Below, one piece after another: positions 11,431-60,370 of a stretch of DNA of 64,000 nt (position 1 is its first letter; every line of letters begins with the position of its first letter). The translations under genes were made by a program, and so were the position numbers. The notes beneath the pieces are model-generated. The model was given only the letters and a program-made list of their open reading frames with translations, did not search any database and had not been told where the DNA came from. This stretch comes from Alphaproteobacteria bacterium (GTDB lineage: Bacteria > Pseudomonadota > Alphaproteobacteria > SP197): NCBI GenBank assembly GCA_965242595.1, contig OZ251464.1, positions 1,982,235-2,046,234 on the forward strand, written 5' to 3'.

Positions 11431-11482
11431 TCGGTCCCCCTCGACAGGCGAGCGCAGCTATCTGGCAAGCCCCCATCAAGAA

Positions 11483-11488
11483 TGTCAA
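11483..11488 (-). promoter_or_regulatory. Candidate -35 box (TTGACA) of the promoter for giant gene 2
   Basis: Minus strand reads GGTGTTGACATTCTTGATGGGGGCTTGCCAGATAGCTG ~50 nt upstream of the GTG start. The -35 hexamer is perfect but the -10 is weak. Confidence 0.3.
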
Positions 11489-11690
11489 CACCTTACAGCC
11501 AGAAACTCATATCCCGCTTCACAGGGGCCGAACCGGTGCCCGGACGGCGGCGGAGGCCATCGCATCTGGCAACGAATGCACCAGCGGAAAGCCGGGAGAG
11601 GACCTGCGATGGCAGGCAATTGCAAAGGCCCCCGCCAGTTCGGCACAGACCCGGAATTGCCGCGCCAAAGCCACAAGAACGATAGCGCCA

Positions 11691-11699
11691 GCACAAACC
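11691..11699. repeat. Homopolymeric C9 tract (G9 on minus), ~260 bp upstream of the giant gene 2 start
   Basis: Direct reading: cca ccccccccc a at 11688..11700. Confidence 0.9.
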
Positions 11700-11808
11700 A
11701 CCCCCCCCCAAGCCCGTGACCATACCTCCAGGCGCGCTGTGCGGCGGACGCCGTTATGCGCCGGATAGCCATGCCGGACGCCAATTCTTGCGGTGCTAAG
11801 CCACGACG

Positions 11809-12546
11809 CTAAGCCACGACAGGGGCGGTCGCTGCCGGAACGGACGGCCCCTCGACAGCGATGCTGCGATCCGCCGCCATCGCAATATGCCGCGCCACGC
11901 GCTCGTCCAGGACGCTCTCCTGGGTATCGAGTTCAAGCGCGAAACGAATCAGCAGCCGTCTGTACAGGTCGAAATCGCGCTCTTGCCGCGCTGCGGCCAA
12001 TTGCCGAATGGCAAGATCGTCGCGCCGCAGCGGCCCGCATACGCGCATGAGGTGAAGGGCGGCGTTGCCCCGCTCCGAGAGGCGGCTTCCCCGCTGGATG
12101 GCGTCTTCCAATGCCTCGTCGAACGCCGTTCGCCCCGCCTCGGTCCATCGCGCCTTGAGGGCCGTGTAAAGGGCCGGCGTCGCCACCCCCAGCCAGCACC
12201 CGGTGTCATCGAGGGGCGCAAGGGATATGCCCGAATCGCCCAGCGCGCCCCCCACAACCTCGGCAGCCCGCGCAAGTTCCGCCCCCATGGCGACCACCCC
12301 TTCGCCGGAGACGATCGGCCGCGCGGATGCCGGCGGCAGCAGGGTGCCAAGCACCGCCGCTTCGTCCGGATCGGCGACCTCCAGCGCCCCGGGGTCGTCG
12401 CGCCAGTCGAGGCTGTGCGCAAGATAGAGCGCGGGATCGCCTGCGAATGAAAGCAAGGGTGGGCAAAAATGCATCCAGTCGCCAACATGGGCGGCGGACA
12501 TGCTAAAAAACCCCCGCAGGGTTGCGGCTGCGCGCGTGTCAACCAT
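11809..12546 (-). CDS. Hypothetical protein (245 aa). Its start overlaps the stop of the upstream ORF by 8 nt.
   Basis: ORF with mixed amino-acid composition (W, H, F, Y, C), unlike the low-complexity antisense frames. It is in the same orientation as its neighbours and translationally coupled to 12539..13315. I recognise no family. Confidence 0.5.
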   Translation of the reverse strand: MVDTRAAATLRGFFSMSAAHVGDWMHFCPPLLSFAGDPALYLAHSLDWRDDPGALEVADPDEAAVLGTLLPPASARPIVSGEGVVAMGAELARAAEVVGGALGDSGISLAPLDDTGCWLGVATPALYTALKARWTEAGRTAFDEALEDAIQRGSRLSERGNAALHLMRVCGPLRRDDLAIRQLAAARQERDFDLYRRLLIRFALELDTQESVLDERVARHIAMAADRSIAVEGPSVPAATAPVVA

Positions 12547-13315
12547 GAGCGGCCTCCAGCACCATGGATTCCTCTACCGTCTGCACCACCGACCCGTCTT
12601 TCTCCGACACGATGACGTGATCGAAAACCCACCTGTAGATTCGCTGGCTTTCGCTGTCTGCCAACGGGTTGCGCCCGAGCCAATGGATATATTTGCCGCG
12701 ATTGTCTTCGCTCATGTGGATTGCCCGTAGCTCCAGGCGGCCGGTGATCGCGTCGTGCGGGATGCGGACTTCCCATGTCCAGGCCCGCGCGGTGTTCGGC
12801 TGTCCCCTGACGATGGTGAACCCGGTCTCCGGAGGCCGATTCCCGGGCCCGGGGGCGCGGCCCTCAATGTAGTCGCTGAGCGTGTCGTAGTGGGCGAGAA
12901 TATACCGTTCGAAAGCATCCTTCCAGTCGCGCAACGGCACATCCAGCGTCCGGAAGGCCGCTTGCCGCGCTGTCGTCCCGAGTGGTGGATCGGTGTGGAT
13001 CTTGCCCGCCCACCAGCCGCCGCTGTCGAACGGCGTGGCCCCCCTCGCATCCGCAGGCCAGGCAACGCCTTCGGCCTCGCTCAAGACAAATACGATCCAG
13101 CCATAGCTGTCCTCCGCCCGCAGGACGTAGAAGTAGTAGGGCTTGCCGAGGATGCCAAGCCCATGCTCGGCCGCCAGGGTTTGCGGGCGGGCAGCGGGCG
13201 CAGGCCACTTTCCCTGGATGGCTGCGGTCACCAATTCGCGCCAATCCTCGCCACCATGAAGGTGGTAGTTGTGCAGCCCTCGGGTCAGCAAACGGTTCAT
13301 GGCCCCATCATACAC
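12539..13315 (-). CDS. Hypothetical protein (258 aa)
   Basis: Complex, non-repetitive composition (YYFYVLRAEDSYGWIVFVLSE..., WTWEVRIPHD...). It sits 69 nt downstream of the protease gene stop. I recognise no family. Confidence 0.55.
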   Translation of the reverse strand: MYDGAMNRLLTRGLHNYHLHGGEDWRELVTAAIQGKWPAPAARPQTLAAEHGLGILGKPYYFYVLRAEDSYGWIVFVLSEAEGVAWPADARGATPFDSGGWWAGKIHTDPPLGTTARQAAFRTLDVPLRDWKDAFERYILAHYDTLSDYIEGRAPGPGNRPPETGFTIVRGQPNTARAWTWEVRIPHDAITGRLELRAIHMSEDNRGKYIHWLGRNPLADSESQRIYRWVFDHVIVSEKDGSVVQTVEESMVLEAAHG

Positions 13316-13384
13316 CGGGAGCAGCGGGAATTGTCACCCCCCAATCGGCATGACGGCCTGCCGGGAGGGCGCCGGGCGGGGCGT

Positions 13385-14041
13385 TCAGGGCTTGGGTTCC
13401 GGCCGTAATGGCGGGCAGCTGTCCGCGCCATCCGCCTGGCGTTTCTGGCGCTGGCGATAGTATTCGACCAGTCGGTACGGGTCGTGGCCGACGGAGCGCG
13501 AAATCCGGTGGCGAACCTCGCGCACGGCGGCGATGACGGGATCGTCTCTCATGGCGATGCCACCTCTCCGGGAAGCTGCGACTTCACGCGCCATGGCGCC
13601 GCCGCGGCGCCAGAGAGTAGCCCGTTTCAGCTTGATCAGGGGGCGGTCGGGCGACTCCGGGCGCGGCCCCAGCGCGCGGGTGGCGCTATCCGCCACCAGG
13701 TCCAGCGCCGTCAGCACGATCTGGCCGATCAGCGGCTCGCTCAAGGGCGGGCCGACGATGCACTCGGTGATCATGAAGCGGTTGCCGATGTGAACCGTCA
13801 CCGGCCCGGCCACCGGGCGGGTTTCCTTGCGTTGGTCCGCATAGGTCACGACGACCTCGCGCTGCTTCCTCAGACCCAGGCGGCTGACCACGTTCTCCGG
13901 CAACACGAGCATGACCGCGCCGGTATCCACCACGCCTAGCACCGTCATGCGGCGAAGCTCGGATTCGGGGCGCAAACCCCGGCGGACGATGCAGCGGTCG
14001 CCGGTGTTTTCTAATTCCACCGAAGCGACGATCTCACCCAT
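13385..14041 (-). CDS. Retropepsin-like (clan AA, DTGA motif) aspartyl protease with a ~80-aa C-terminal extension
   Basis: Reads MGEIVASVELENTGDRCIVRRGL...LGVVDTGAVMLVLPENVVSRLGL...IGNRFMITECIVGP, with the catalytic D-T-G-A signature and the overall pattern of the PF13650/PF13975 type. There is a strong SD (GAGGAGGAAG) 8 nt upstream of the ATG at 14041; the ORF track extends it to a GTG at 14089. The C-terminal tail (MRDDPVIAAVREVRHRISRSVGHDPYRLVEYYRQRQKRQ) is unassigned. Confidence 0.6.
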   Translation of the reverse strand: MGEIVASVELENTGDRCIVRRGLRPESELRRMTVLGVVDTGAVMLVLPENVVSRLGLRKQREVVVTYADQRKETRPVAGPVTVHIGNRFMITECIVGPPLSEPLIGQIVLTALDLVADSATRALGPRPESPDRPLIKLKRATLWRRGGAMAREVAASRRGGIAMRDDPVIAAVREVRHRISRSVGHDPYRLVEYYRQRQKRQADGADSCPPLRPEPKP

Positions 14042-14061
14042 CGGCTTCCTCCTCACCGGCA

Positions 14062-14190
14062 TCCTGTCGCAACCGGAGCACCATGCCACAGGCGCCGCCG
14101 GGCGGGTGTCGGGTGGGTGTCACGGGGGTGTCGTGGACATGTTGCAGGGCGGCCGCGGCAGGCGGCGCGGGGCGGCGGGGGCCTGCCCAG
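14062..14190. repeat. Intergenic element R, copy 1. It lies between hicB and the protease gene.
   Basis: ~100-bp core is shared with 14627..14758 and 15151..15245. It contains GTGTC-type repeats phased at exactly 11 bp (14106, 14117, 14128, 14139). Its gene-proximal end reads GGTTGCGACAGGAT on minus. Confidence 0.7.
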
Positions 14191-14208
14191 GCCGTGTCCG
14201 GGCGCCGG

Positions 14209-14415
14209 TTAGACGGTGGCCGGTTCGGGCAGCGCCCCATCCTCATTGCGGACGATCTCCAGCCACTCGTCCACGATCCGGCACAGCTCGCGATACACCG
14301 CCACTTCGTCGTCGCCATGACAGCACGGGCCGATGACCCCGGGACAGGAACCGACAAAACACCGGTCCTCGTCCGACCATGCGACTCGCTTGATGTATTT
14401 CGCGCTGTCCTTCAT
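14209..14415 (-). CDS. hicB: HicB-family antitoxin, short form without a DNA-binding domain (68 aa)
   Basis: Reads MKDSAKYIKRVAWSDEDRCFVGSCPGVIGPCCHGDDEVAVYRELCRIVDEWLEIVRNEDGALPEP, matching the HicB-like antitoxin pattern (Y..v.WseEDg.yva..P.lpGc...GdT.eEA.......I.ewLE). It has a 4-nt ATGA overlap with hicA and a GAGGAG SD inside the hicA 3' end. Confidence 0.75.
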   Translation of the reverse strand: MKDSAKYIKRVAWSDEDRCFVGSCPGVIGPCCHGDDEVAVYRELCRIVDEWLEIVRNEDGALPEPATV

Positions 14416-14606
14416 GTCTGCGACTCCTCTATCCTTCGCCGCACCTCTCGTTCCTGGTAGGGCTTGGCATCGCCACCCAGGCTTCCGGAAATCGTCACAC
14501 GCTGCCCGTTCGGGTGGCGATAATTTCTGTGGCTGCCCTTGCCGCCGCGCGAAACGAACCCCGCCCGCTCCAGGTCTCTCACCAACGCTGCGACTTTACG
14601 CGGCAT
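14412..14606 (-). CDS. hicA: HicA-family mRNA interferase toxin (64 aa)
   Basis: Reads MPRKVAALVRDLERAGFVSRGGKGSHRNYRHPNGQRVTISGSLGGDAKPYQEREVRRRI. It has the G-KGSH-x-y-HP signature of HicA/YcfA-like proteins and sits directly upstream of hicB with overlap. Confidence 0.8.
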   Translation of the reverse strand: MPRKVAALVRDLERAGFVSRGGKGSHRNYRHPNGQRVTISGSLGGDAKPYQEREVRRRIEESQT

Positions 14607-14626
14607 GGTGTCGAGGCCGACATGGC

Positions 14627-14758
14627 CAACATTCTATCGCAACCGGGGCGCCATGGTCACAGGCGCTGCCGGGAGGGTGTCGGGCAGGTGTCACGGGCGT
14701 GTCGTGGGCGTGTTGCAGGGCGGCCGCGGCAGACAGCGCGGGGTGGCGGGGGCCGGGT
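14627..14758. repeat. Intergenic element R, copy 2, immediately upstream (minus sense) of hicA
   Basis: Four GTGTC/GTGTT repeats at 14677, 14688, 14699 and 14710 with exact 11-bp phasing. A TTGCGATAGAAT (-10-like TAGAAT) lies 25 nt before the hicA ATG on minus. Confidence 0.7.
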
Positions 14759-14762
14759 GGAA

Positions 14763-15044
14763 TTATCCCGAAGCTCGTTGAACTTCAGCCGCCCCGCCAT
14801 GCCGTGGCCCGCGCTGCCCAACCATCCCGGAGCACGCCAGGCCCGCGGTCGGTTCGGGCAGCGCCCCATCCTCATCGCGGAGGATCTCCAGCCACTCGTC
14901 CACGATCCGGCACAACTCCCGATACACCGCCACTTCGTCGTCGCCGTGACAGCACGGGCCGATGACGCCGGGGCAGGAACCGACGAAGCACCGATCCTCG
15001 TCCGACCACGCGACTCGCTTGATGTATTTCGCGCTGTCCTTCAT
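14763..15044 (-). CDS. Second, orphan HicB-like copy (hicB') with a 26-aa C-terminal extension and no hicA partner
   Basis: MKDSAKYIKRVAWSDEDRCFVGSCPGVIGPCCHGDDEVAVYRELCRIVDEWLEILRDEDGALPEPTAGL... is ~93% nt identical to hicB over ~250 bp. It has an intact ATG (15044) and a GAGGAG SD. The ORF track extends it to 15083 through the tandem repeat. Confidence 0.5.
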   Translation of the reverse strand: MKDSAKYIKRVAWSDEDRCFVGSCPGVIGPCCHGDDEVAVYRELCRIVDEWLEILRDEDGALPEPTAGLACSGMVGQRGPRHGGAAEVQRASG

Positions 15045-15057
15045 GTCCGCGACTCCT

Positions 15058-15130
15058 CTATCCTCCGCCGCGCCGCTCTCCATCCCTCGCCGCGCCGCTC
15101 TCTATCCTTCATCCTTCGCCGCGCCGCTCA
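15058..15130. repeat. Imperfect 22-bp tandem triplication replacing hicA upstream of hicB'
   Basis: Units are ctatcctccgccgcgccgctctc / catccctcgccgcgccgctctc / tatccttcatccttcgccgcgccgctcattcc. They correspond to the 3' end of hicA (RRRIEE codons and the hicB SD) present once at 14416..14440. Confidence 0.7.
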
Positions 15131-15150
15131 TTCCTGGCACAGTTGGCACC

Positions 15151-15245
15151 CTATCGCAACCGGGCCACCACCACAATAGGCGCTATCGGGAGGGTGCCGC
15201 AAGGGTGTCGTGAACATGTTGCGCGGCCGCCGCCCGACACCCGCC
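15151..15245. repeat. Intergenic element R, copy 3, partial and diverged. It lies between the giant gene 1 stop and hicB'.
   Basis: Starts ctatcgcaaccgg like copies 1 and 2. It retains three 11-bp-phased GTG(C/T)C repeats at 15194, 15205 and 15216. Confidence 0.55.
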
Positions 15246-15286
15246 CGACACCCCTGCGGCACCCACCCGACAGGCGGCGCGGGCGC

Positions 15287-18200
15287 CTACCAGGCCAGGC
15301 GCAGTTCCAGGGCCAGGCCGTGTTCGGGATCGGCGACGCCCTCGTTGCGGCTGGCCTCGATGGCGAGGCTCAGCACGCTGCCCAGCCCCCACCGCTGGCC
15401 CAGGCTGTAGCGGCGCTCGCCCCGGCCCAGGGCCATGGCGCCATAGGGGGTCGCGGTGGCGACGCCGCCCCAGGCGGGCAGGCCATAGCCCAGCTCGCTC
15501 TCCAGCCGGGCGCCCCGGCCGACGCTGGCGCCGTTCTCGTCGCCGCCCGCCATGCCGTCCTGCCACAGGCGCGTCAGGCCGCTATCGGCCACGCCCCAGG
15601 CGGGGGCGAGCTGGAACGACAGGCCGCGCCCGTCGCCGTCGGGGTTCAGGTGGAAGGCGCCAGACGCGCCCCATTCCTCCAGATCGCTGCGATGGGCCAG
15701 CAGGGCCCGCCCGCCCAGTTCGGCCCCCAGGCCGCCGCCGGAATCGCTCAGCGCGATGCTGCCGCCCAGCTCCACGCCCATGCCGCTGGCGCCATCGCCA
15801 CCGTCCCAGCGCAGCCCCGCCTCCAGGGACGGCGCCAGCGACCAGCCGCCATCCAGCGACCAGCTGCGGCTTCCCGCCGCCGCCAGCCGGGCGCGCTGGG
15901 TGGCCACGGTCAGGGCGGCGATCACCTCGCCATTGTCGTCCAGGGCATAGCGGGTGGCCTCCACCGACGCCTTCAGGTCCAGCGCCAGCCCGTCGGCGGC
16001 CAGCAGCGGCAGCGCCCCGCCCATGGCGGCGGCCAGCATGGAACTGTCGCCCGCCTGCCAGCCATAGCGCTCGCGGATGGCGCTATCGGTCATGCGCAGA
16101 TCGCCGCGCCCATAGCCCAGGGCCGCCCACAACCGGCTGCCGTCGGCGCCGGCCCAGCCCAGATAGGGATGGACGGCCGACATGGCGCTCTCGTGGTCGC
16201 CCCGGATGGCGCCCTCGTCGCCATCGCTGCGGTCGCTATAGGCGATGGCGCTCTCGAAGCGCGAGAGCGCCAGCCCGGCGGTGAAGCCGTCGCCCAGCAC
16301 CGCATCGGCGCCGAGATGGGCCGCGAACAGCCTGCCCGACCAGTCCAGCGCCGCCTGCTTGCGTTCCAGATCGCGCCAGTCGCCGGCGCCCCACAGCACC
16401 AGCGAGGAGGCGCCGCCATCGTCGTCATCGCCGCCACTCAGGGCCAGGGTGAAGCCTTCGCCGCCCAGCAGCTCCTTCCACGAGCTGCCGCCGTCCTCCA
16501 GCGCCTCGCCCTTGGAGCGCAGGAAGCCCGCCGCCGCGTCCAGGCCCTGCGCCGCCAGCCCACCGCCGCCACCGGCCGGGCCTTCCAGGCGGGAGGAGAT
16601 GGCGTCCAGCGCGCTGCCCCACATGGCCCGCGACAGCTCCGGCAGAATGGAGCGGTTGATGGCCTTCAGCCGCGCCCGCGCCAGGTCCAGATTGGCCACC
16701 ACCTCGACGGTGAAGACCAGCTCCGCCCGCTGGCCGTCGATATCGGTCGCCGTCCAGCTGTAGCTGCGCAGCTCGAACGCCGCGCCCGGCGTCCCCGACA
16801 GGCGGCGCCCGGCGCGGGCGATGCCGTCCGGCAGCGTCTCCGGCGCCAACGCATATTGCAGCTGCCCGTCGCCGCCGCTCGCCAGCGGCAGGTCCAGCGG
16901 CGCGATGGCCTCGTCCACCGTCCAGGTCAGCGCCTGCGGGAAGTCGGCCTCGGCGAAGGACGGGCGCGTGTCCTCATAGCCGACCGCAAAGGGCGAGAAT
17001 GTCGTCACCCCGGGCGCGCACACCCGCATCCGCTCCGCCTCCCAGGACGACCCCGCCACCGGTTCCCAGGCGCTGCCGTCATGATGCAGCAGCACGGGTT
17101 CGCGCCCCGCCGCCGCCGCCAGCAGAGCCTCGCTTACCGGCAGGCAGATATGCAGCCCCGCCGCCAGCGCCCCCGCGACCTGGATATCCACCGCCGACTG
17201 CGCCGCGCCGTCCCGCCCCAGGGCGAAGCCCGACCCATCCACCACCGGCAGCGCCCGGTCCGAAAGCGGCCTGAAGCTCATCTCCACCATGCGTCCGCCG
17301 ATGCTGAACACCGCCTCCGCCTCCCGCAACGGCGCCAGGATGCGGCTGTCCTCTTCCACCGGAGCGGAGAGCGCCGCCTGCACCCCGTCATAATCGCCGC
17401 CGGAGGCGCTGTGGGTCAGCAGCGCCGCGTCGGCATAGTCGTCCTCGTCCCCCCGCGCCGTCACCGTCACCGTCTGCGCCTGGTTCCAGTCCGCCGCCGT
17501 GAAGGTCAGGCCGGTGGGCGCGGGCGTCACATCCGGGTTGTCGCTCGCCACCGCCAGCGTCACCGGCCCGGTGGGCTCGCTGGTCAGCGCCACCGTGTAG
17601 TCGGCCCCCGGCCCGTCCGCCGTGGTCGCCACCGCCGCCGGCGCGAAGGCCAGCCCCCTGCTGTCGTCGTCGGCGACGGTCAGGGTGGCGGCGGCGACGG
17701 CCACGCTTTCGCCGGCGGCGCTGGCCAGGGCGTTGGCGGCCGCGCCCGTCACCCGCACCGATATGTCCGGCGCATCCACGGCGTTGTCGTTGGCCGTCAC
17801 CGTCACCTGGCCGCTGCTGGCGGTAGCAAAGGCGGCAAAGGTCAGCGTCGTTCCCGCCTGGGTGAAATCGCCCGCCACCGCGCCCGCCACCGGCGCCGCC
17901 TGAACCGTCACCGTGGTCGCCGCCGCCGAGGGATGGGACAGCAGCGCCGTCACCCGCGTCACGCCGCCGTTCTCGGAGATGGTGGCCGGGTTCAGCACCA
18001 GCGTCACCGCCGGCGCCGCGTCGTCGTCGCTCGTGGTCACATCCACATGCTCGACCAGGCCGTCATAGATGGCATCGCCGCTCGCCGTCCGCAGCCGCAC
18101 CTGCCATGCGACATCGCCATCGTCGATGGCGTCGTCCACCCCGGTCACCGTCACCCTCTGGGCCCGGTTCCAGTTCCCGGCGCCGAACACCAGCGCGGCC

Positions 18201-56455: not shown

Positions 56456-56743
56456 TCAGGCGCGGCCCGGAGCGCCGAAAGGCCCTAAAAGGCCCCCGGC
56501 CATGGCGAGCACGAGGGCCGCGATGAAACCCATGGCCCATCGCATGAAGCGAAGCTCAACTCTGAGCTCGTGAATATCGGCCCTGGTGGCCAGTTCGCCC
56601 CGGTCGGCAGTGCTGGCCTGGCGAACGACACCGGCGATGGCGGCGCTCAGAGCCGGCCCTTCACCACCGCCACCACCCCGCGCCGGCCTAGGGCAGCAGC
56701 TTGATGAGAGCCACCACAGCGGCAACGGCGGCGCACAAACCAC
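56456..56743 (-). pseudogene. DUF1640-like C-terminal fragment, or a short paralog overlapping the next gene
   Basis: The 3' part reads ELATRADIHELRVELRFMRWAMGFIAALVLAMAGG, DUF1640-like. The N-terminal part of the ORF is low-complexity and overlaps 56688..56948 by 56 nt. There is no convincing start. Confidence 0.3.
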
Positions 56744-57066: not shown

Positions 57067-57142
57067 TGGTGAGCCCGCAGGGACTCGAACCCTGGACCCT
57101 CTGATTAAAAGTCAGATGCTCTACCAGCTGAGCTACAGGCTC
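57067..57142 (-). tRNA. tRNA-Lys (anticodon UUU), 76 nt with encoded CCA
   Basis: Minus-strand sequence is GAGCCTGTAGCTCAGCTGGTAGAGCATCTGACTTTTAATCAGAGGGTCCAGGGTTCGAGTCCCTGCGGGCTCACCA. The 7-bp acceptor stem is GAGCCTG/CGGGCTC and the anticodon loop is CTTTTAA. The T-loop is TTCGAGT. Confidence 0.9.
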
Positions 57143-57409: not shown

Positions 57410-58810
57410 TCAGGACGAACCGTCGCCACCCTTCGGAAAGCCGTCGCCGTCATGCCGGTCGCCGGTCAGTTCCGGGGCCTGGAGCGCGCGGGCTTCCAGT
57501 TCGATCGGCGTGATTTCGTCAACCATGCTGCCCTTCGGCGCCGCGCCCAGCCTCTCGAATCTCCGCGCAGTCGGCAGAACGCGGCCCTCGAGCGAACCGA
57601 CGCTCATGTTGTAGCGATCGACCGCTTGACGAAGAGCTTTGCCGAGATTGCCCATGCGCCCACCGAAAAATTTGATCCGTTCGAACAATTCGCGGGCAAG
57701 GTCGAACACGGCCTGGGTGTTCTCCGCCAGCTTGTGCTGCTGCCATCCATAAGCGATCGCCTTCACCAGGGCGATGAAGCTCATCGGGGTGGCGATCAGA
57801 ACGCGGTTCGAGACCGCCTGCTCGAACAACTCCGGATCGCGTTCGACGGCCGCCGAATAAAACGGCTCGCCGGGAATGAACATCACGACAAAGTCGGGCG
57901 TGACCGACAGCGCCTGCCAGTATTCCTTCGACGCAAGATCGCGCACATGGTTGCGGACATGATGAACATGGTTCGCCATGTGCTGGGCGCGTTCCTCCTC
58001 GTCGCTGGCCTCCACCGCGGCGAGATACCCCTCCAGAGGCGTTTTCGCATCGACGACGATGGATTTATCACCGGGCAGGCGGATGATGGCATCGGGCCGC
58101 AGACGGCGCTCCTCGCCGACGGTCGCTTGCGTCACGAAATCCACATGCTCGCTCATGCCCGCCATTTCGAGGACGTTCTTCAGCTGATATTCGCCCCAGC
58201 GCCCGCGCGTCTGCGGCTGCCGGAGCGCCTGCACCAGCCGATTCGTCTCCGTCTTCAAACGCAACTGCCCCTCGCTAAGGGTTTTAACCTGCTCCGTGAC
58301 GGCGCTATAGGCCCCTTCCCGCGCCTTTTCGATCTCGCCGACCTTTTGCTCGAACTTGTCCAGGCTCTCGCCGATCGGCTTGACCAGCGTCTCGATCGCC
58401 TGCTGCCTCCTGGCCAGATCCTCGTCGGAACTGGCCTTGTGCTTTTCGAACCGCTCCGTCACCCGATCCAGGAAATTTCTGCTGTTCTTTTCAAGCGCCT
58501 CGGCGGCCAGCAGCGCGAATTTTCGCTCGATCTCGGCAGCCATGCCCTTCAGCTCCTCGACGCGAGCCTCATGGTTCTGCCGTTCCGTCTTCAAACTGGT
58601 CTCGGCGATAGCCTTCTCCCCCAACAGCCGCTCGCGCTCGGACCGCTCGCGCTCCACAGTCTCCGCCGCACTCGCCTCCGCCGCATTCGCCCGCTCCTCA
58701 GCAGCGGCAGTCCTGGAGCGTTCCGGGCGAACGAAGGCCAGCCAAGCGGCGATACCCCCAAGGCCGAACCCGATCACCGCCATCAAAACATCGCCCATCT
58801 CGAACGTCAT
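57410..58810 (-). CDS. rmuC: DNA recombination protein RmuC
   Basis: 466 aa with an N-terminal TM segment and a coiled-coil region. The conserved RmuC block is LRQPQTRGRWGEYQLKNVLEMAGM...VDFVTQ...RPDAIIRLPGDKSIVVDAK. Confidence 0.8.
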   Translation of the reverse strand: MTFEMGDVLMAVIGFGLGGIAAWLAFVRPERSRTAAAEERANAAEASAAETVERERSERERLLGEKAIAETSLKTERQNHEARVEELKGMAAEIERKFALLAAEALEKNSRNFLDRVTERFEKHKASSDEDLARRQQAIETLVKPIGESLDKFEQKVGEIEKAREGAYSAVTEQVKTLSEGQLRLKTETNRLVQALRQPQTRGRWGEYQLKNVLEMAGMSEHVDFVTQATVGEERRLRPDAIIRLPGDKSIVVDAKTPLEGYLAAVEASDEEERAQHMANHVHHVRNHVRDLASKEYWQALSVTPDFVVMFIPGEPFYSAAVERDPELFEQAVSNRVLIATPMSFIALVKAIAYGWQQHKLAENTQAVFDLARELFERIKFFGGRMGNLGKALRQAVDRYNMSVGSLEGRVLPTARRFERLGAAPKGSMVDEITPIELEARALQAPELTGDRHDGDGFPKGGDGSS

Positions 58811-59008: not shown

Positions 59009-60370
59009 CTACGGCTCCGGGACACCACGCATAGAGCTTTCATATTCAGCGATCCACCGTTCGGCCTCTTCCGTGGTGTAAGAACCAGTGATGACGCCAC
59101 TATCTTCTGGCGGTTCATGGCTCGGCGGCCGGTCGATATGAGGCTCCAGTTTCTGACGCAATTCCTTCGCTTCTGTGTCGGGCATATCCTCGACGAGAGA
59201 GTCTGCGTCTTCTCGGTTCAAACCACCCGAGAAAATCACCTCCGACAGATCGCTCTCCTGATCGATCCTCGTGCGAATGTGCGCTTCGAAAGGCGATCCT
59301 GTGGTAAACTCGCAGATAACTCCATGCAGCTGCACACCGAAAAGGTATGCTCCTTGTAGTCTCGCCGAGAAAAGATTTGCCCCTTGTAGTTCAGCCCAAA
59401 AAAGATTTGCCCCTTGTAGTTGTGCATTGACAAGAGTGCTACCTTGTAGATGCGCCCCGAAAAGATAGGCCCCTTGCAAATATGTACAGAACAAGCGCGC
59501 CCCTTGCAATTTCGCTTCAAAAAGATCCGCCCCTCGCAGTTGCGCGCTAAGGAGTGTTGCCCCCTGCAGCTGTGCATAGTGGAGTGTAACTCCCTGTAAT
59601 TGCGCCTTGTGGAGCGATGCTATTTGCAGACAAACATTGATAAGATTTGCGCCCTGCATGTGCGCCAAGTCAAGATTTGCTCCGTTCAACCAGCTGCCCT
59701 GCAAATTGATGCTACAACCCTTGAATACCTCATACTCTTGCACGAACAGCAGCGTCAACAGGCTCTGAATCTCTTCCGAAGGCTTAGATTCGTGTTCCTC
59801 TCGATACCCGGTCTTGCCTGTCGTCTGGCGGATATGGGCACAGAGGATGTCCAGCACCGTCTGTCGCAGATCCTCGGTATCCTTCGCCAGGTGGAAAAGC
59901 TCATAGGCCCCACCCAAACGTGCGGAAACCGAGTCATGACCCAAATGCCCAATGGCGTTCTTCAGCCGCTCCTGGCGCCGCCCATCCTCCGCGCCCCGGT
60001 TGGCCTCAACCTGCGCCTCTGCGACCTGCACCTGCGCCTTGGCGGTTTCTTCCATCGCCACAGCGCGGCGGTTGGCGACCGCCACTCCGATGGCGATCAG
60101 GACGCCGCCCATGACCGTGGCGATGGATGCCAGGACCGTGAACTTGCCTGTGGGTTCGTTCGGAGACTCGGCCGGTATGCCGAGACGAGAGAGCATCCAC
60201 GGCAGGCCGATGTCGAACAGGGCAGCCATGAGGGCTGCAAGCAGCCCGACCAGCGCAACGACCAGGGCCGCGAGAAGATACCGCCTCCCCCAAGCCCACA
60301 CCCGCTTCATCGCGGCGGCGCTCCTAGCCTTCATCGCGGCTCGAACGCCCGCATCGTCTCCCGCGCCCAC
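59009..60370 (-). CDS. Membrane-anchored pentapeptide-repeat protein
   Basis: Two predicted TM helices (LLAALVVALVGLLAALMAALF; FTVLASIATVMGGVLIAIGVAV) are followed by ~20 A(N/D)LxG-type pentapeptide units (ANLDLAHMQGANLINVCLQIASLHKAQLQGVTLHYAQLQGATLLSAQLRGADLFEAKLQGARLF...). The DNA has 30-bp periodicity and markedly lower GC around 59230..59700. An alternative start is M13 (60334) or M21 (60310). Confidence 0.7.
   Translation of the reverse strand: MGAGDDAGVRAAMKARSAAAMKRVWAWGRRYLLAALVVALVGLLAALMAALFDIGLPWMLSRLGIPAESPNEPTGKFTVLASIATVMGGVLIAIGVAVANRRAVAMEETAKAQVQVAEAQVEANRGAEDGRRQERLKNAIGHLGHDSVSARLGGAYELFHLAKDTEDLRQTVLDILCAHIRQTTGKTGYREEHESKPSEEIQSLLTLLFVQEYEVFKGCSINLQGSWLNGANLDLAHMQGANLINVCLQIASLHKAQLQGVTLHYAQLQGATLLSAQLRGADLFEAKLQGARLFCTYLQGAYLFGAHLQGSTLVNAQLQGANLFWAELQGANLFSARLQGAYLFGVQLHGVICEFTTGSPFEAHIRTRIDQESDLSEVIFSGGLNREDADSLVEDMPDTEAKELRQKLEPHIDRPPSHEPPEDSGVITGSYTTEEAERWIAEYESSMRGVPEP

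What the first reader, a model, noticed from the sequence alone, without database searches (positions are those of the whole stretch)
11809..15245. Candidate accessory cassette wedged between two giant adhesin genes
Reading minus-sense, the order is: giant gene 1 stop, R, hicB', R, hicA-hicB, R, DTGA protease, unknown, unknown, then the promoter of giant gene 2. The cassette is built by local duplication (R x3, hicB x2). It combines a toxin-antitoxin pair with a protease and two unknowns. I cannot match it to a described defence or secretion-accessory system. It may be an addiction module stabilising the adhesin locus, or an uncharacterised system.
Basis: inference. Interest (0 to 1): 0.55.

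Follow-up and report, generated by a model that had tools for sequence, protein, structure and literature searches.

The report
Patchwork of small accessory gene modules
The gap between two giant adhesin-like genes holds three unrelated small gene modules, each partly rearranged or truncated: a toxin-antitoxin pair, a lone protease, and part of an unknown three-gene module; only that last module is new.

Summary
On the minus strand, between giant gene 1 (13,619 aa) and giant gene 2, lie three copies of R, hicB', hicA-hicB, a DTGA protease and two unknown ORFs.

The interval is not one system:
- **Each module occurs alone elsewhere.** hicAB (85% nt identity), the 139-aa protease (>1,300 homologues) and the two unknowns are each found separately in other genomes.
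- **The two unknowns (unkA, unkB) are a conserved pair.** They are adjacent and start/stop-overlapping in every one of about 20 other loci, never with hicAB or giant genes.
- **A third gene, unkC, usually follows them.** The window has lost unkC and the unkB tail.
- **The orthologous locus L023 is scrambled.** It carries the same pieces in another order, with other truncations, and has no giant gene 1.
- **The window's protease is a fusion.** A deletion removed its stop and joined it to a hicA 5' remnant and a small ORF.

R is not an integron attC site, and no protein matches PADLOC beyond a weak HicA hit.

unkA is the novel part. It has 498 clusters at 50% identity, no Pfam hit, a confident AlphaFold model and no PDB or BFVD fold match. 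Its function is unknown.

The parts
15130..15286 (-). R1. Repeat copy directly after the stop of giant gene 1. It contains an extra inverted copy of the 11-nt-periodic GACACCC block, so it forms a long hairpin.
   Evidence: nhmmer E 2.9e-32, with the inverted partial copy at 15215-15279 (E 1e-5). Inverted repeat I3 has arms 15183-15227 and 15229-15273. The ssDNA fold is -46.6 kcal/mol, z = -3.4. TRF finds period 11, 3.9 copies.
15045..15137 (-). Remnant of the hicA 3' end, with its last ~22 nt repeated in tandem. The rest of hicA is deleted in this unit.
   Evidence: Repeat families D5 and D7. TRF finds period 22, 1.9 copies, 95% matches. tblastn places HicA residues 53-64 at 15079-15044.
14763..15044 (-). 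hicB'. A second HicB copy of 93 aa with no stop at the homologous position, so it reads on into R2. It looks like an orphan antitoxin copy that is still under purifying selection.
   Evidence: 94% amino-acid identity to hicB over 67 residues. Nine synonymous against four non-synonymous codon changes, dN/dS 0.10. The same extended form (106 aa) is present in L023.
14607..14762 (-). R2. Repeat copy upstream of hicA. It carries the only promoter-like site that passed the scan (GTGACC-18-TAGAAT).
   Evidence: nhmmer E 8.2e-39. Promoter scan. TRF period 11. No significant hairpin, z = +0.9.
14412..14606 (-). hicA. A 64-aa HicA toxin, predicted to be an mRNA interferase.
   Evidence: Pfam HicA_toxin 41.5 bits, E 1.4e-10. 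PDB 1WHZ E 4.9e-6, and the GKGSH motif aligns with S. pneumoniae HicA 5YRZ. PHROG 'toxin' family hit at 7e-8. dN/dS 0.09 against L023.
14209..14415 (-). hicB. A 68-aa short HicB-like antitoxin. Its start overlaps the hicA stop (ATGA). It has no DNA-binding domain.
   Evidence: Position and ATGA overlap read from the sequence. UPF0150/HicB-like only 14.4 bits, E 0.037, below the cut-off. It belongs to a 47-member cluster at 90% identity.
14042..14208 (-). R3. Repeat copy upstream of the protease gene. An AGGAGG ribosome-binding site follows it.
   Evidence: nhmmer E 1.1e-37. TRF period 11, 3.2 copies. No hairpin, z = 0.0. Sequence.
13625..14041 (-). Retropepsin-like (clan AA) aspartic protease domain of 139 aa with the DTGA motif. 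It has no signal peptide or membrane segment.
   Evidence: Asp_protease_2 29.6 bits. TIGR03698 42 bits, below its cut-off. 1,357 homologues were found, and nearly all of the 120 listed are 139 aa (L018's copy ends ...KLK*). 83% identity to the L018 copy.
13385..13624 (-). Foreign tail fused in frame to the protease. It is a short linker, a hicA 5' remnant (about 13564-13601) and a small ORF, orfS (own ATG at 13552, 'MRDDPVIAAVREVRHRIS...').
   Evidence: In L023 the protease ends at its normal stop, followed by a hicA 5' fragment, and orfS is a separate 64-aa ORF 900 nt further on. Repeat D10. orfS dN/dS 0.14. No family hit.
12539..13300 (-). unkA. A 253-aa member of a large unannotated family. 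It is predicted to be an alpha/beta protein with no known fold match, and may be an enzyme (invariant Y56, D92, G94, Y144, E177).
   Evidence: Homologues. 498 clusters at 50% identity. AlphaFold pLDDT 86.8, pTM 0.86. No PDB or BFVD fold match. No Pfam hit for any of 119 diverse members.
11809..12546 (-). unkB. The 245-aa obligate partner of unkA, overlapping it by 8 nt. This is the short form, lacking the C-terminal tail motif. The usual third gene, unkC, is absent.
   Evidence: Adjacent to unkA in all loci. AlphaFold gives a confident C-terminal helical bundle and a low-confidence N-terminal 70 residues. No PDB fold match. unkC and the tail are present in L023 and most loci.
11431..11808 (-). 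Non-coding spacer and upstream region of giant gene 2. A perfect TTGACA lies about 60 nt before the GTG start. Window 11523-11866 replaces the 1.7 kb that holds the unkB tail, unkC and a 96-aa ORF in L023.
   Evidence: Sequence. blastn boundaries between L023 and the window.

Best explanation
The interval is a small zone where accessory genes have accumulated and decayed. It is not one system. Three unrelated modules sit side by side in the spacer upstream of giant gene 2.

(1) hicAB, a type II toxin-antitoxin pair. It consists of a HicA RNase toxin and a short HicB. A second unit has lost most of hicA and keeps only hicB'. These units are separated by R, a ~150-nt repeat that carries three GACAC(C) motifs at 11-nt spacing and a promoter-like element. 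Recombination between R copies best explains the R-hicB'-R-hicAB-R layout (inferred).

(2) A lone cytoplasmic retropepsin-like aspartic protease from a very abundant 139-aa family. Here a deletion removed its stop codon and fused it to a hicA 5' remnant and a small ORF.

(3) The first two genes of a widespread, uncharacterised, translationally coupled three-gene module, unkA-unkB-unkC. The third gene and the unkB tail have been deleted here.

Shown by the data: the identity of the parts, their independent distribution, the rearrangements relative to the orthologous locus, and purifying selection on the ORFs.

Inferred, not shown: HicA is probably an active toxin held in check by HicB and HicB'. 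If so, the pair could incidentally disfavour loss of the region. The modules probably arrived by horizontal transfer among co-resident bacteria.
For: Each module occurs separately elsewhere:
- unkA-unkB are adjacent in L001-L016 and L024-L027, which come from Gamma- and Alphaproteobacteria and Vicinamibacterales MAGs. None of these loci has hicAB, the protease or a giant gene within 10 kb.
- hicAB at 85% nt identity sits in an unrelated context, without R, in L020-L022.
- The protease sits among housekeeping genes in L019.

The orthologous locus L023 (78-88% nt identity) reads: housekeeping genes, R-like, protease, hicA 5' fragment, hicB' 3' fragment, a 99-aa ORF, orfS, R fragment, hicA-hicB (extended form), protease 5' fragment, unkA, unkB (328 aa), unkC, a 96-aa ORF, giant gene 2 orthologue. 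It has no giant gene 1.

Signs of decay in the window:
- hicA is deleted in unit 1.
- The protease stop is lost. All but a few of the 120 listed homologues are 136-143 aa, most exactly 139 aa.
- unkC and the unkB tail are missing.
- unkA has the highest dN/dS of the set, 0.52.

The hicB/hicB' duplication is old. Its dS of 0.26 is similar to the window-L023 divergence of 0.19-0.49.

None of the proteins has a signal peptide or membrane segment, by inspection of the sequences. There is no PADLOC system hit.
Against: - All ORFs are intact, on one strand, closely spaced and under purifying selection (dN/dS 0.09-0.52).
- The same set of modules has stayed together in two genomes since they diverged.
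- Three copies of one promoter-like repeat sit in front of hicB', hicAB and the protease. That could make them a co-regulated set.
- A protease homologue also lies 1.1 kb upstream of a homologous giant gene in an independent genome, L018. That is more than expected if its placement were random.
- Only a handful of contexts could be sampled.
Confidence: 0.7

Rival explanations
1. The protease is an accessory factor for the giant adhesin-like proteins. It would process them, as the retropepsin-like APRc of Rickettsia processes autotransporter adhesins (recalled from the literature, not checked here). The other genes would be bystanders.
For: The protease lies upstream of, and on the same strand as, a giant Calx-beta/LapA-domain gene in the window, in the orthologous L023 and in the independent L018. 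Of the two unbiased extra contexts sampled (L018, L019), one is next to a giant gene.
Against: The protease has no signal peptide or membrane anchor, so it is predicted to be cytoplasmic, whereas adhesin processing would be periplasmic or at the surface. The family has over 1,300 homologues in many genomes, and L019 shows a housekeeping context. The window's copy is C-terminally fused to foreign sequence, and L023 has a truncated second copy, which is how a repeated selfish gene behaves. No LapG- or LapD-type family was hit.
Confidence: 0.1
2. The whole interval is one co-regulated accessory system. R would act as a shared promoter/operator driving hicB', hicAB and protease-orfS, with unkAB as the effector.
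For: R occurs three times in front of three transcription units, with conserved blocks also present in L023. All genes are co-oriented. The modules are co-located in two genomes.
Against: The modules occur independently elsewhere, and R is absent from those copies. Order and completeness differ between the two orthologous loci. unkAB has its own partner gene, unkC, and its own contexts. The promoter-like match is not above chance: 1 site found against 0.5 +/- 0.7 expected.
Confidence: 0.07
3. The interval is an integron-like cassette array lacking an integrase, with R as the attC recombination site.
For: Small promoterless-looking ORFs, including a toxin-antitoxin pair, are each separated by a ~150-nt repeat. 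R has short inverted GCAAC...GTTGC ends.
Against: R2 and R3 do not fold into a hairpin on either strand (z between -0.1 and +0.9). The R interior is a C-rich direct repeat, not a palindrome. The ends do not fit the RYYYAAC/GTTRRRY consensus. There is no R after the protease or the unk genes. The homologous cassettes elsewhere lack R.
Confidence: 0.02

Closest known systems
HicAB type II toxin-antitoxin systems
   Same: A HicA_toxin domain above Pfam threshold with the GSH motif. The toxin gene comes first and overlaps the antitoxin start by 4 nt (ATGA). The proteins are small.
   Different: HicB is only 68 aa, with no ribbon-helix-helix or HTH DNA-binding domain and only a sub-threshold HicB/UPF0150 match. 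There is an extra orphan hicB' copy. A repeated upstream element, R, is not found with homologous hicAB elsewhere.
Bacterial retropepsin-like clan AA aspartic proteases (Pfam Asp_protease_2; NCBIfam TIGR03698/TIGR02281; e.g. Rickettsia APRc)
   Same: A DTGA active-site motif in a ~130-aa single-lobe domain. Pfam hit above threshold.
   Different: It falls below the cut-offs of both NCBIfam subfamilies. It has no membrane anchor, unlike APRc and TIGR02281 proteins. Here it is fused to 79 foreign residues. No PDB sequence relative was found.
Chromosomal toxin-antitoxin or accessory-gene islets at synteny breakpoints
   Same: Several small, independently mobile modules are packed into an intergenic gap. 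They show duplications, truncations and different arrangements in close relatives.
   Different: There is no integrase, transposase or flanking direct repeats in the window. The nearest tRNA gene (tRNA-Lys, 57067-57142) is 41 kb away, beyond giant gene 1.
Three-gene, translationally coupled toxin-antitoxin or defence-type operons (general class only)
   Same: unkA-unkB-unkC have 4-10 nt overlaps and a patchy distribution across phyla. They occupy varied insertion contexts, often next to Rpn/Transposase_31 genes, other toxin-antitoxin genes or restriction genes.
   Different: No sequence or fold similarity to any known toxin, antitoxin or defence protein. No evidence of toxicity. Not found on plasmids, phages or IMG/VR contigs.

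Membership tests
HicAB type II toxin-antitoxin | Toxin carries the HicA_toxin domain | tested here: met
   PF07927 at 41.5 bits against a cut-off of 27, E 1.4e-10. PDB 1WHZ E 4.9e-6.
HicAB type II toxin-antitoxin | Conserved catalytic histidine (G-S-H motif) in HicA | tested here: met
   GGKGSH in the window protein aligns with GGKGSH of S. pneumoniae HicA 5YRZ. The catalytic role is taken from established knowledge, not tested here.
HicAB type II toxin-antitoxin | hicA directly upstream of, and coupled to, hicB | tested here: met
   The hicA stop and the hicB start overlap as ATGA at 14412-14415.
HicAB type II toxin-antitoxin | Antitoxin has the HicB N-terminal (partial RNase H-like, UPF0150) domain | tested here: inconclusive
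   PF21748 at only 14.4 bits against a cut-off of 27.3, E 0.037. No PDB sequence match.
HicAB type II toxin-antitoxin | HicB C-terminal DNA-binding domain (RHH or HTH) for autoregulation | tested here: not met
   HicB is 68 aa, and no such domain was found. This feature is common in HicB proteins but not universal.
HicAB type II toxin-antitoxin | Toxicity of HicA and its neutralisation by HicB | not testable with these tools
   Needs expression experiments.
Clan AA retropepsin-like aspartic protease | D-T/S-G-A active-site motif in a single-lobe domain | tested here: met
   VVDTGAV at residues 37-43. PF13650 at 29.6 bits against a cut-off of 24.3.
NCBIfam TIGR03698 (clan_AA_DTGF) and TIGR02281 (clan_AA_DTGA) subfamilies | Score above the curated cut-off | tested here: not met
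   42 bits against 57.35, and 16 bits against 57.95.
Integron gene cassettes (attC sites) | The repeat folds as an imperfect hairpin with RYYYAAC/GTTRRRY ends | tested here: not met
   R2 and R3 have z-scores between -0.1 and +0.9 on both strands. The ends read CTGCAAC and GTTGCGA.
Known anti-phage defence systems (PADLOC-DB v2) | Proteins match the models of a described system | tested here: not met
   Only a HicA-like hit at E 0.0016. Nothing for the protease, unkA, unkB or unkC.
LapG/LapD-type or APRc-type adhesin-processing accessory proteins | A periplasmic or membrane-anchored protease (signal peptide or membrane segment), or a LapG/LapD domain | tested here: not met
   No such Pfam hit. 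No hydrophobic N-terminus or membrane stretch in the 218-aa sequence, by inspection.

The most novel reading that the evidence does not exclude
unkA-unkB-unkC is a previously undescribed, horizontally mobile three-gene system. It could be toxin-antitoxin-like, anti-phage or symbiosis-related. UnkA would be an enzyme with a fold not represented in the PDB (invariant D92, E177, Y56, Y144). UnkB would be a partner whose conserved N-terminus folds only on binding, and UnkC an acidic third subunit. The window would hold a truncated two-gene relic or variant of it.
Probability: 0.35. Interest if true: 0.6.

Novelty: new member of a known kind. Interest (0 to 1): 0.35.

Why it matters
For the adhesin locus it matters little. 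Nothing links these genes to secretion or function of the giant proteins, so they should not be annotated as an adhesin-accessory or defence system.

Two things are worth keeping:
- **A case study in module reshuffling.** It shows how small selfish modules (hicAB, a solo protease) are duplicated, truncated and fused by recombination between short repeats in uncultured, probably host-associated, high-GC bacteria.
- **An unannotated three-gene module.** unkABC has about 500 clusters at 50% identity, no Pfam family and a confidently predicted fold with no structural neighbour. It recurs next to Rpn/Transposase_31 genes. That makes it a concrete candidate for experimental characterisation.

Tried and rejected
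- **R as an integron attC site.** Rejected by folding and by the end sequences.
- **A fourth R copy upstream of unkA.** Suggested by repeat D14. It was not found by the R profile at E <= 10.
- **R as a dispersed genomic repeat.** There are no further copies in the 64-kb window and none in 19 related loci. The source genome itself could not be fetched.
- **Rfam.** Only sub-threshold leuA-Halobacteria hits at the two hicB starts, judged spurious.
- **unkA and unkB fold and sequence searches.** Nothing from PDB, from BFVD (unkA model only), from Pfam, NCBIfam, PHROGs or PADLOC, or from a broader 119-member profile. The TEL-SAM hits are artefacts that sum a 31-residue match over repeated fusion domains.
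- **unkA on plasmids, phages or IMG/VR.** None found. The protease was also absent from IMG/VR.
- **More orthologous adhesin loci.** A search of JGI metagenomes with the giant gene 2 N-terminus found nothing.
- **Left-flank synteny between the window and L023.** Only a weak match of a small membrane-protein ORF. No tRNA gene in L023.
- **Literature.** A search for retropepsin-like proteases in toxin-antitoxin systems gave no papers. The environment of origin could not be confirmed.

Full report
**Observation.** The window is about 70% G+C. Reading the minus strand:
- Giant gene 1 (15287-56146, 13,619 aa) ends at 15287.
- Giant gene 2 begins at GTG 11430 with a signal-peptide-like N-terminus and runs off the window.
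- Both giant genes carry Calx-beta and LapA domains, and gene 1 also has He_PIG.

Between them lie, in order:

| Element | Coordinates | Note |
|---|---|---|
| R1 | 15130-15286 | |
| hicA 3' remnant | 15045-15137 | short tandem repeats |
| hicB' | 14763-15044 | 93 aa |
| R2 | 14607-14762 | |
| hicA | 14412-14606 | |
| hicB | 14209-14415 | ATGA overlap with hicA |
| R3 | 14042-14208 | |
| protease ORF | 13385-14041 | 218 aa |
| unkA | 12539-13300 | 253 aa |
| unkB | 11809-12546 | 245 aa, 8-nt overlap with unkA |
| spacer | 11431-11808 | 378 nt |

- A profile of R finds only these three copies in 64 kb (E 3e-32 to 8e-39), plus a partial inverted copy inside R1. Pattern searches are far above the shuffle expectation.
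- The hicB duplication is 232 nt at 93% identity.
- HicA passes the Pfam threshold. The protease passes Asp_protease_2 and has the DTGA motif. HicB gives only a sub-threshold UPF0150 hit.

**What R is.**
- R2 and R3 do not fold better than shuffled sequence on either strand. Only R1, which carries an extra inverted copy of the repeat core, forms a long hairpin right after the giant gene 1 stop (z = -3.4). R is therefore not an attC site.
- Each copy holds two to four units of an 11-nt periodic GACAC(C) motif, followed by a promoter-like -35/-10 pair. Only the R2 pair passes the scan, and one such site is not above chance.
- R-like sequence with the same conserved blocks lies upstream of the protease and of hicA in the orthologous locus L023.
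- R is absent upstream of the homologous protease in L018 and L019 and of hicAB in L020-L022.
- I read R as a local 5' region that was copied along with the modules and has served as a substrate for unequal recombination. Regulatory function is possible but unproven.

**The two unknowns are an independent module.**
- 174 homologues were found for each of unkA and unkB, with no Pfam domain and no source name.
- In every locus recovered, unkA is immediately followed by unkB with overlapping stop and start codons. These loci are L001-L016 and L024-L027, from MAGs labelled Pseudomonadales, Gamma- and Alphaproteobacteria, Vicinamibacterales and Ca. Azotimanducaceae.
- None of those loci has hicAB, the protease or a giant gene within 10 kb.
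- In 14 of about 20 distinct loci, a third coupled gene, unkC, follows. It is about 190 aa, acidic, with the motif QDLEDTLWIGA. In those loci unkB usually carries a variable linker ending in a conserved tail (KGVVDTAxxREA).
- The window lacks both unkC and that tail. Window 11523-11866 replaces the 1.7 kb that holds them in L023.

**How far the unkA family reaches.**
- An exhaustive HMMER search finds 498 clusters at 50% identity for unkA.
- Across 119 diverse members the invariant residues are Y56, D92, G94, Y144 and E177, which suggests an enzyme.
- The AlphaFold model of unkA is confident (pLDDT 86.8, pTM 0.86). It has no PDB or BFVD neighbour (best E 1.3 and 1.9).
- unkB has a confident C-terminal helical bundle and a conserved but low-confidence N-terminal 70 residues, and no PDB match.
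- No Pfam, NCBIfam, PHROG or PADLOC hit exists for any of the three proteins (PHROGs was run only on unkA and unkB), including distant unkA relatives.
- The only recurrent neighbour is Transposase_31 (the Rpn/YhgA-like family). It lies on both sides of the module in L004. In L025 a copy lies upstream and a fragment downstream. It is also nearby in L005, L006, L011 and L002.
- Other contexts include RloB/AAA_21, DUF433/DUF5615, SocA_Panacea and a Type ISP restriction enzyme. Some contexts are purely metabolic.
- unkA is absent from the plasmid, phage and IMG/VR collections.

**The protease.**
- 1,357 homologues were found. The 120 best are 69-83% identical over the protease domain, and nearly all of them are 139 aa (L018's copy ends ...KLK*).
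- The window's 218-aa ORF, annotated identically in the public record, continues past that point.
- Comparison with L023 shows that the extra 79 residues are a linker, a hicA 5' remnant and a small ORF, orfS. In L023, orfS is a separate 64-aa gene 900 nt downstream. A deletion therefore fused them in the window.
- The protein has no signal peptide or membrane segment.
- The contexts sampled were housekeeping genes (L019) and, notably, 1.1 kb upstream of a homologous giant gene in an independent 6.1-Mb contig (L018).
- That second case keeps an adhesin-processing role alive as a minority rival.

**The orthologous locus.** L023 is a 24-kb metagenome scaffold that matches the window at 78-88% nt identity. 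It carries, in order:
1. rnpA-yidD-yidC-engB-argB-HAD housekeeping genes
2. two small membrane-protein ORFs
3. R-like sequence
4. the protease (143 aa)
5. a hicA 5' fragment
6. a hicB' 3' fragment
7. a 99-aa ORF
8. orfS
9. an R fragment
10. hicA-hicB (the extended 106-aa form)
11. a 153-nt protease 5' fragment
12. unkA
13. unkB (328 aa)
14. unkC
15. a 96-aa ORF
16. the giant gene 2 orthologue

- There is no giant gene 1 in L023.
- The same few building blocks are thus permuted, truncated and duplicated differently in two close relatives. That is what decaying selfish modules do, not what a selected operon does.
- In L020-L022, hicA carries an internal stop while hicB is intact.
- All window ORFs are nonetheless under purifying selection against L023. 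dN/dS is 0.09 for hicA, 0.19 for hicB, 0.36 for the protease, 0.14 for orfS, 0.34 for unkB and 0.52 for unkA.
- hicB against hicB' gives dN/dS 0.10 with dS 0.26, so the duplication is about as old as the split between the two genomes.

**Interpretation.**
- The best-supported reading (confidence about 0.7) is a patchwork of three independent modules, not a cassette with a common function.
- hicAB is most likely a working toxin-antitoxin pair with a spare antitoxin copy. Any stabilising effect on the neighbouring adhesin genes would be incidental and cannot be tested here.
- Three features stop me from excluding co-regulation or a protease-adhesin link:
  - R sits in front of three units.
  - The modules have stayed together in two genomes.
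  - L018 shows a second protease-giant gene adjacency.

**Novelty.**
- The hicAB part and the protease are new members of known kinds.
- The unkABC module is a genuine unannotated family with a predicted fold that has no structural neighbour. The window holds only a reduced copy, and I have no functional evidence for it.
- Overall interest is modest, at 0.35.
- The most novel reading not excluded is that unkABC is a new mobile three-gene system (probability about 0.35, interest 0.6 if true).

Noticed in passing
window 57067-57142 (-): A tRNA-Lys(ttt) gene lies about 0.9 kb upstream of the giant gene 1 start. Between them is a 95-aa membrane-protein-like ORF (56456-56743), weakly similar to two tandem small ORFs left of the cassette in L023. 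This could mark an island boundary. No integrase was seen.
   Followed up: partly
window 11795-11820: A perfect 13-nt tandem duplication (GCTAAGCCACGAC x2) spans the unkB stop codon and duplicates the TAG. It lies inside the segment that replaces the unkB tail and unkC of L023.
   Followed up: no
window 15290-17401 (-): The C-terminal 704 aa of giant gene 1 have no Pfam hit at E <= 0.001, although the protein ends ...LELRLAW, which resembles an outer-membrane beta-barrel terminus. The secretion type of the 13,619-aa protein is therefore unassigned.
   Followed up: partly
L004 7401-8429 and 13721-14716; L025 6536-7585 and 10869-11081: Transposase_31 (Rpn/YhgA-like) genes or fragments flank the unkA-unkB-unkC module on both sides. 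This suggests the module travels as cargo of, or together with, these recombination-promoting nucleases.
   Followed up: partly
L020-L022 4810-5001: The hicA homologue (86-87% amino-acid identity) has an in-frame stop at codon 10, while the downstream hicB is intact. This is an orphan-antitoxin state comparable to hicB' in the window.
   Followed up: partly
L001 8812-12273 (same as L003 10737-14216): unkB is fused in frame to a full-length aminopeptidase N (Peptidase_M1), giving a 1,153-aa ORF, apparently through loss of the unkB stop. unkC is absent there.
   Followed up: no
L014 10711-11967: unkB carries an internal duplication of its own C-terminal helical domain (75% identity over 158 aa).
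   Followed up: no
window 13304-13345 (-): A GTGACA ... TATGAT promoter-like pair ends only 6 nt before the unkA ATG. That would imply a leaderless unkA mRNA.
   Followed up: no
window 14392-14443 and 15021-15072 (-): Weak Rfam matches to leuA-Halobacteria RNA (27 and 22 bits, against a gathering score of 48) at the two hicB starts. Judged spurious, since they simply reflect the duplicated sequence.
   Followed up: yes
window 57410-58810 (-) and 59009-60370 (-): RmuC and a pentapeptide-repeat protein lie upstream of giant gene 1. G+C drops to 54% around 59-60 kb, which suggests foreign DNA there.
   Followed up: no
L026 2073-4064 and 9839-12184: A GPP34-P450 fusion and a 781-aa ankyrin-repeat protein lie next to unkAB. 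Both features are reported as typical of sponge symbionts (PMC11706023 abstract for GPP34). This hints that the whole gene pool comes from sponge-associated bacteria. Not verified.
   Followed up: partly
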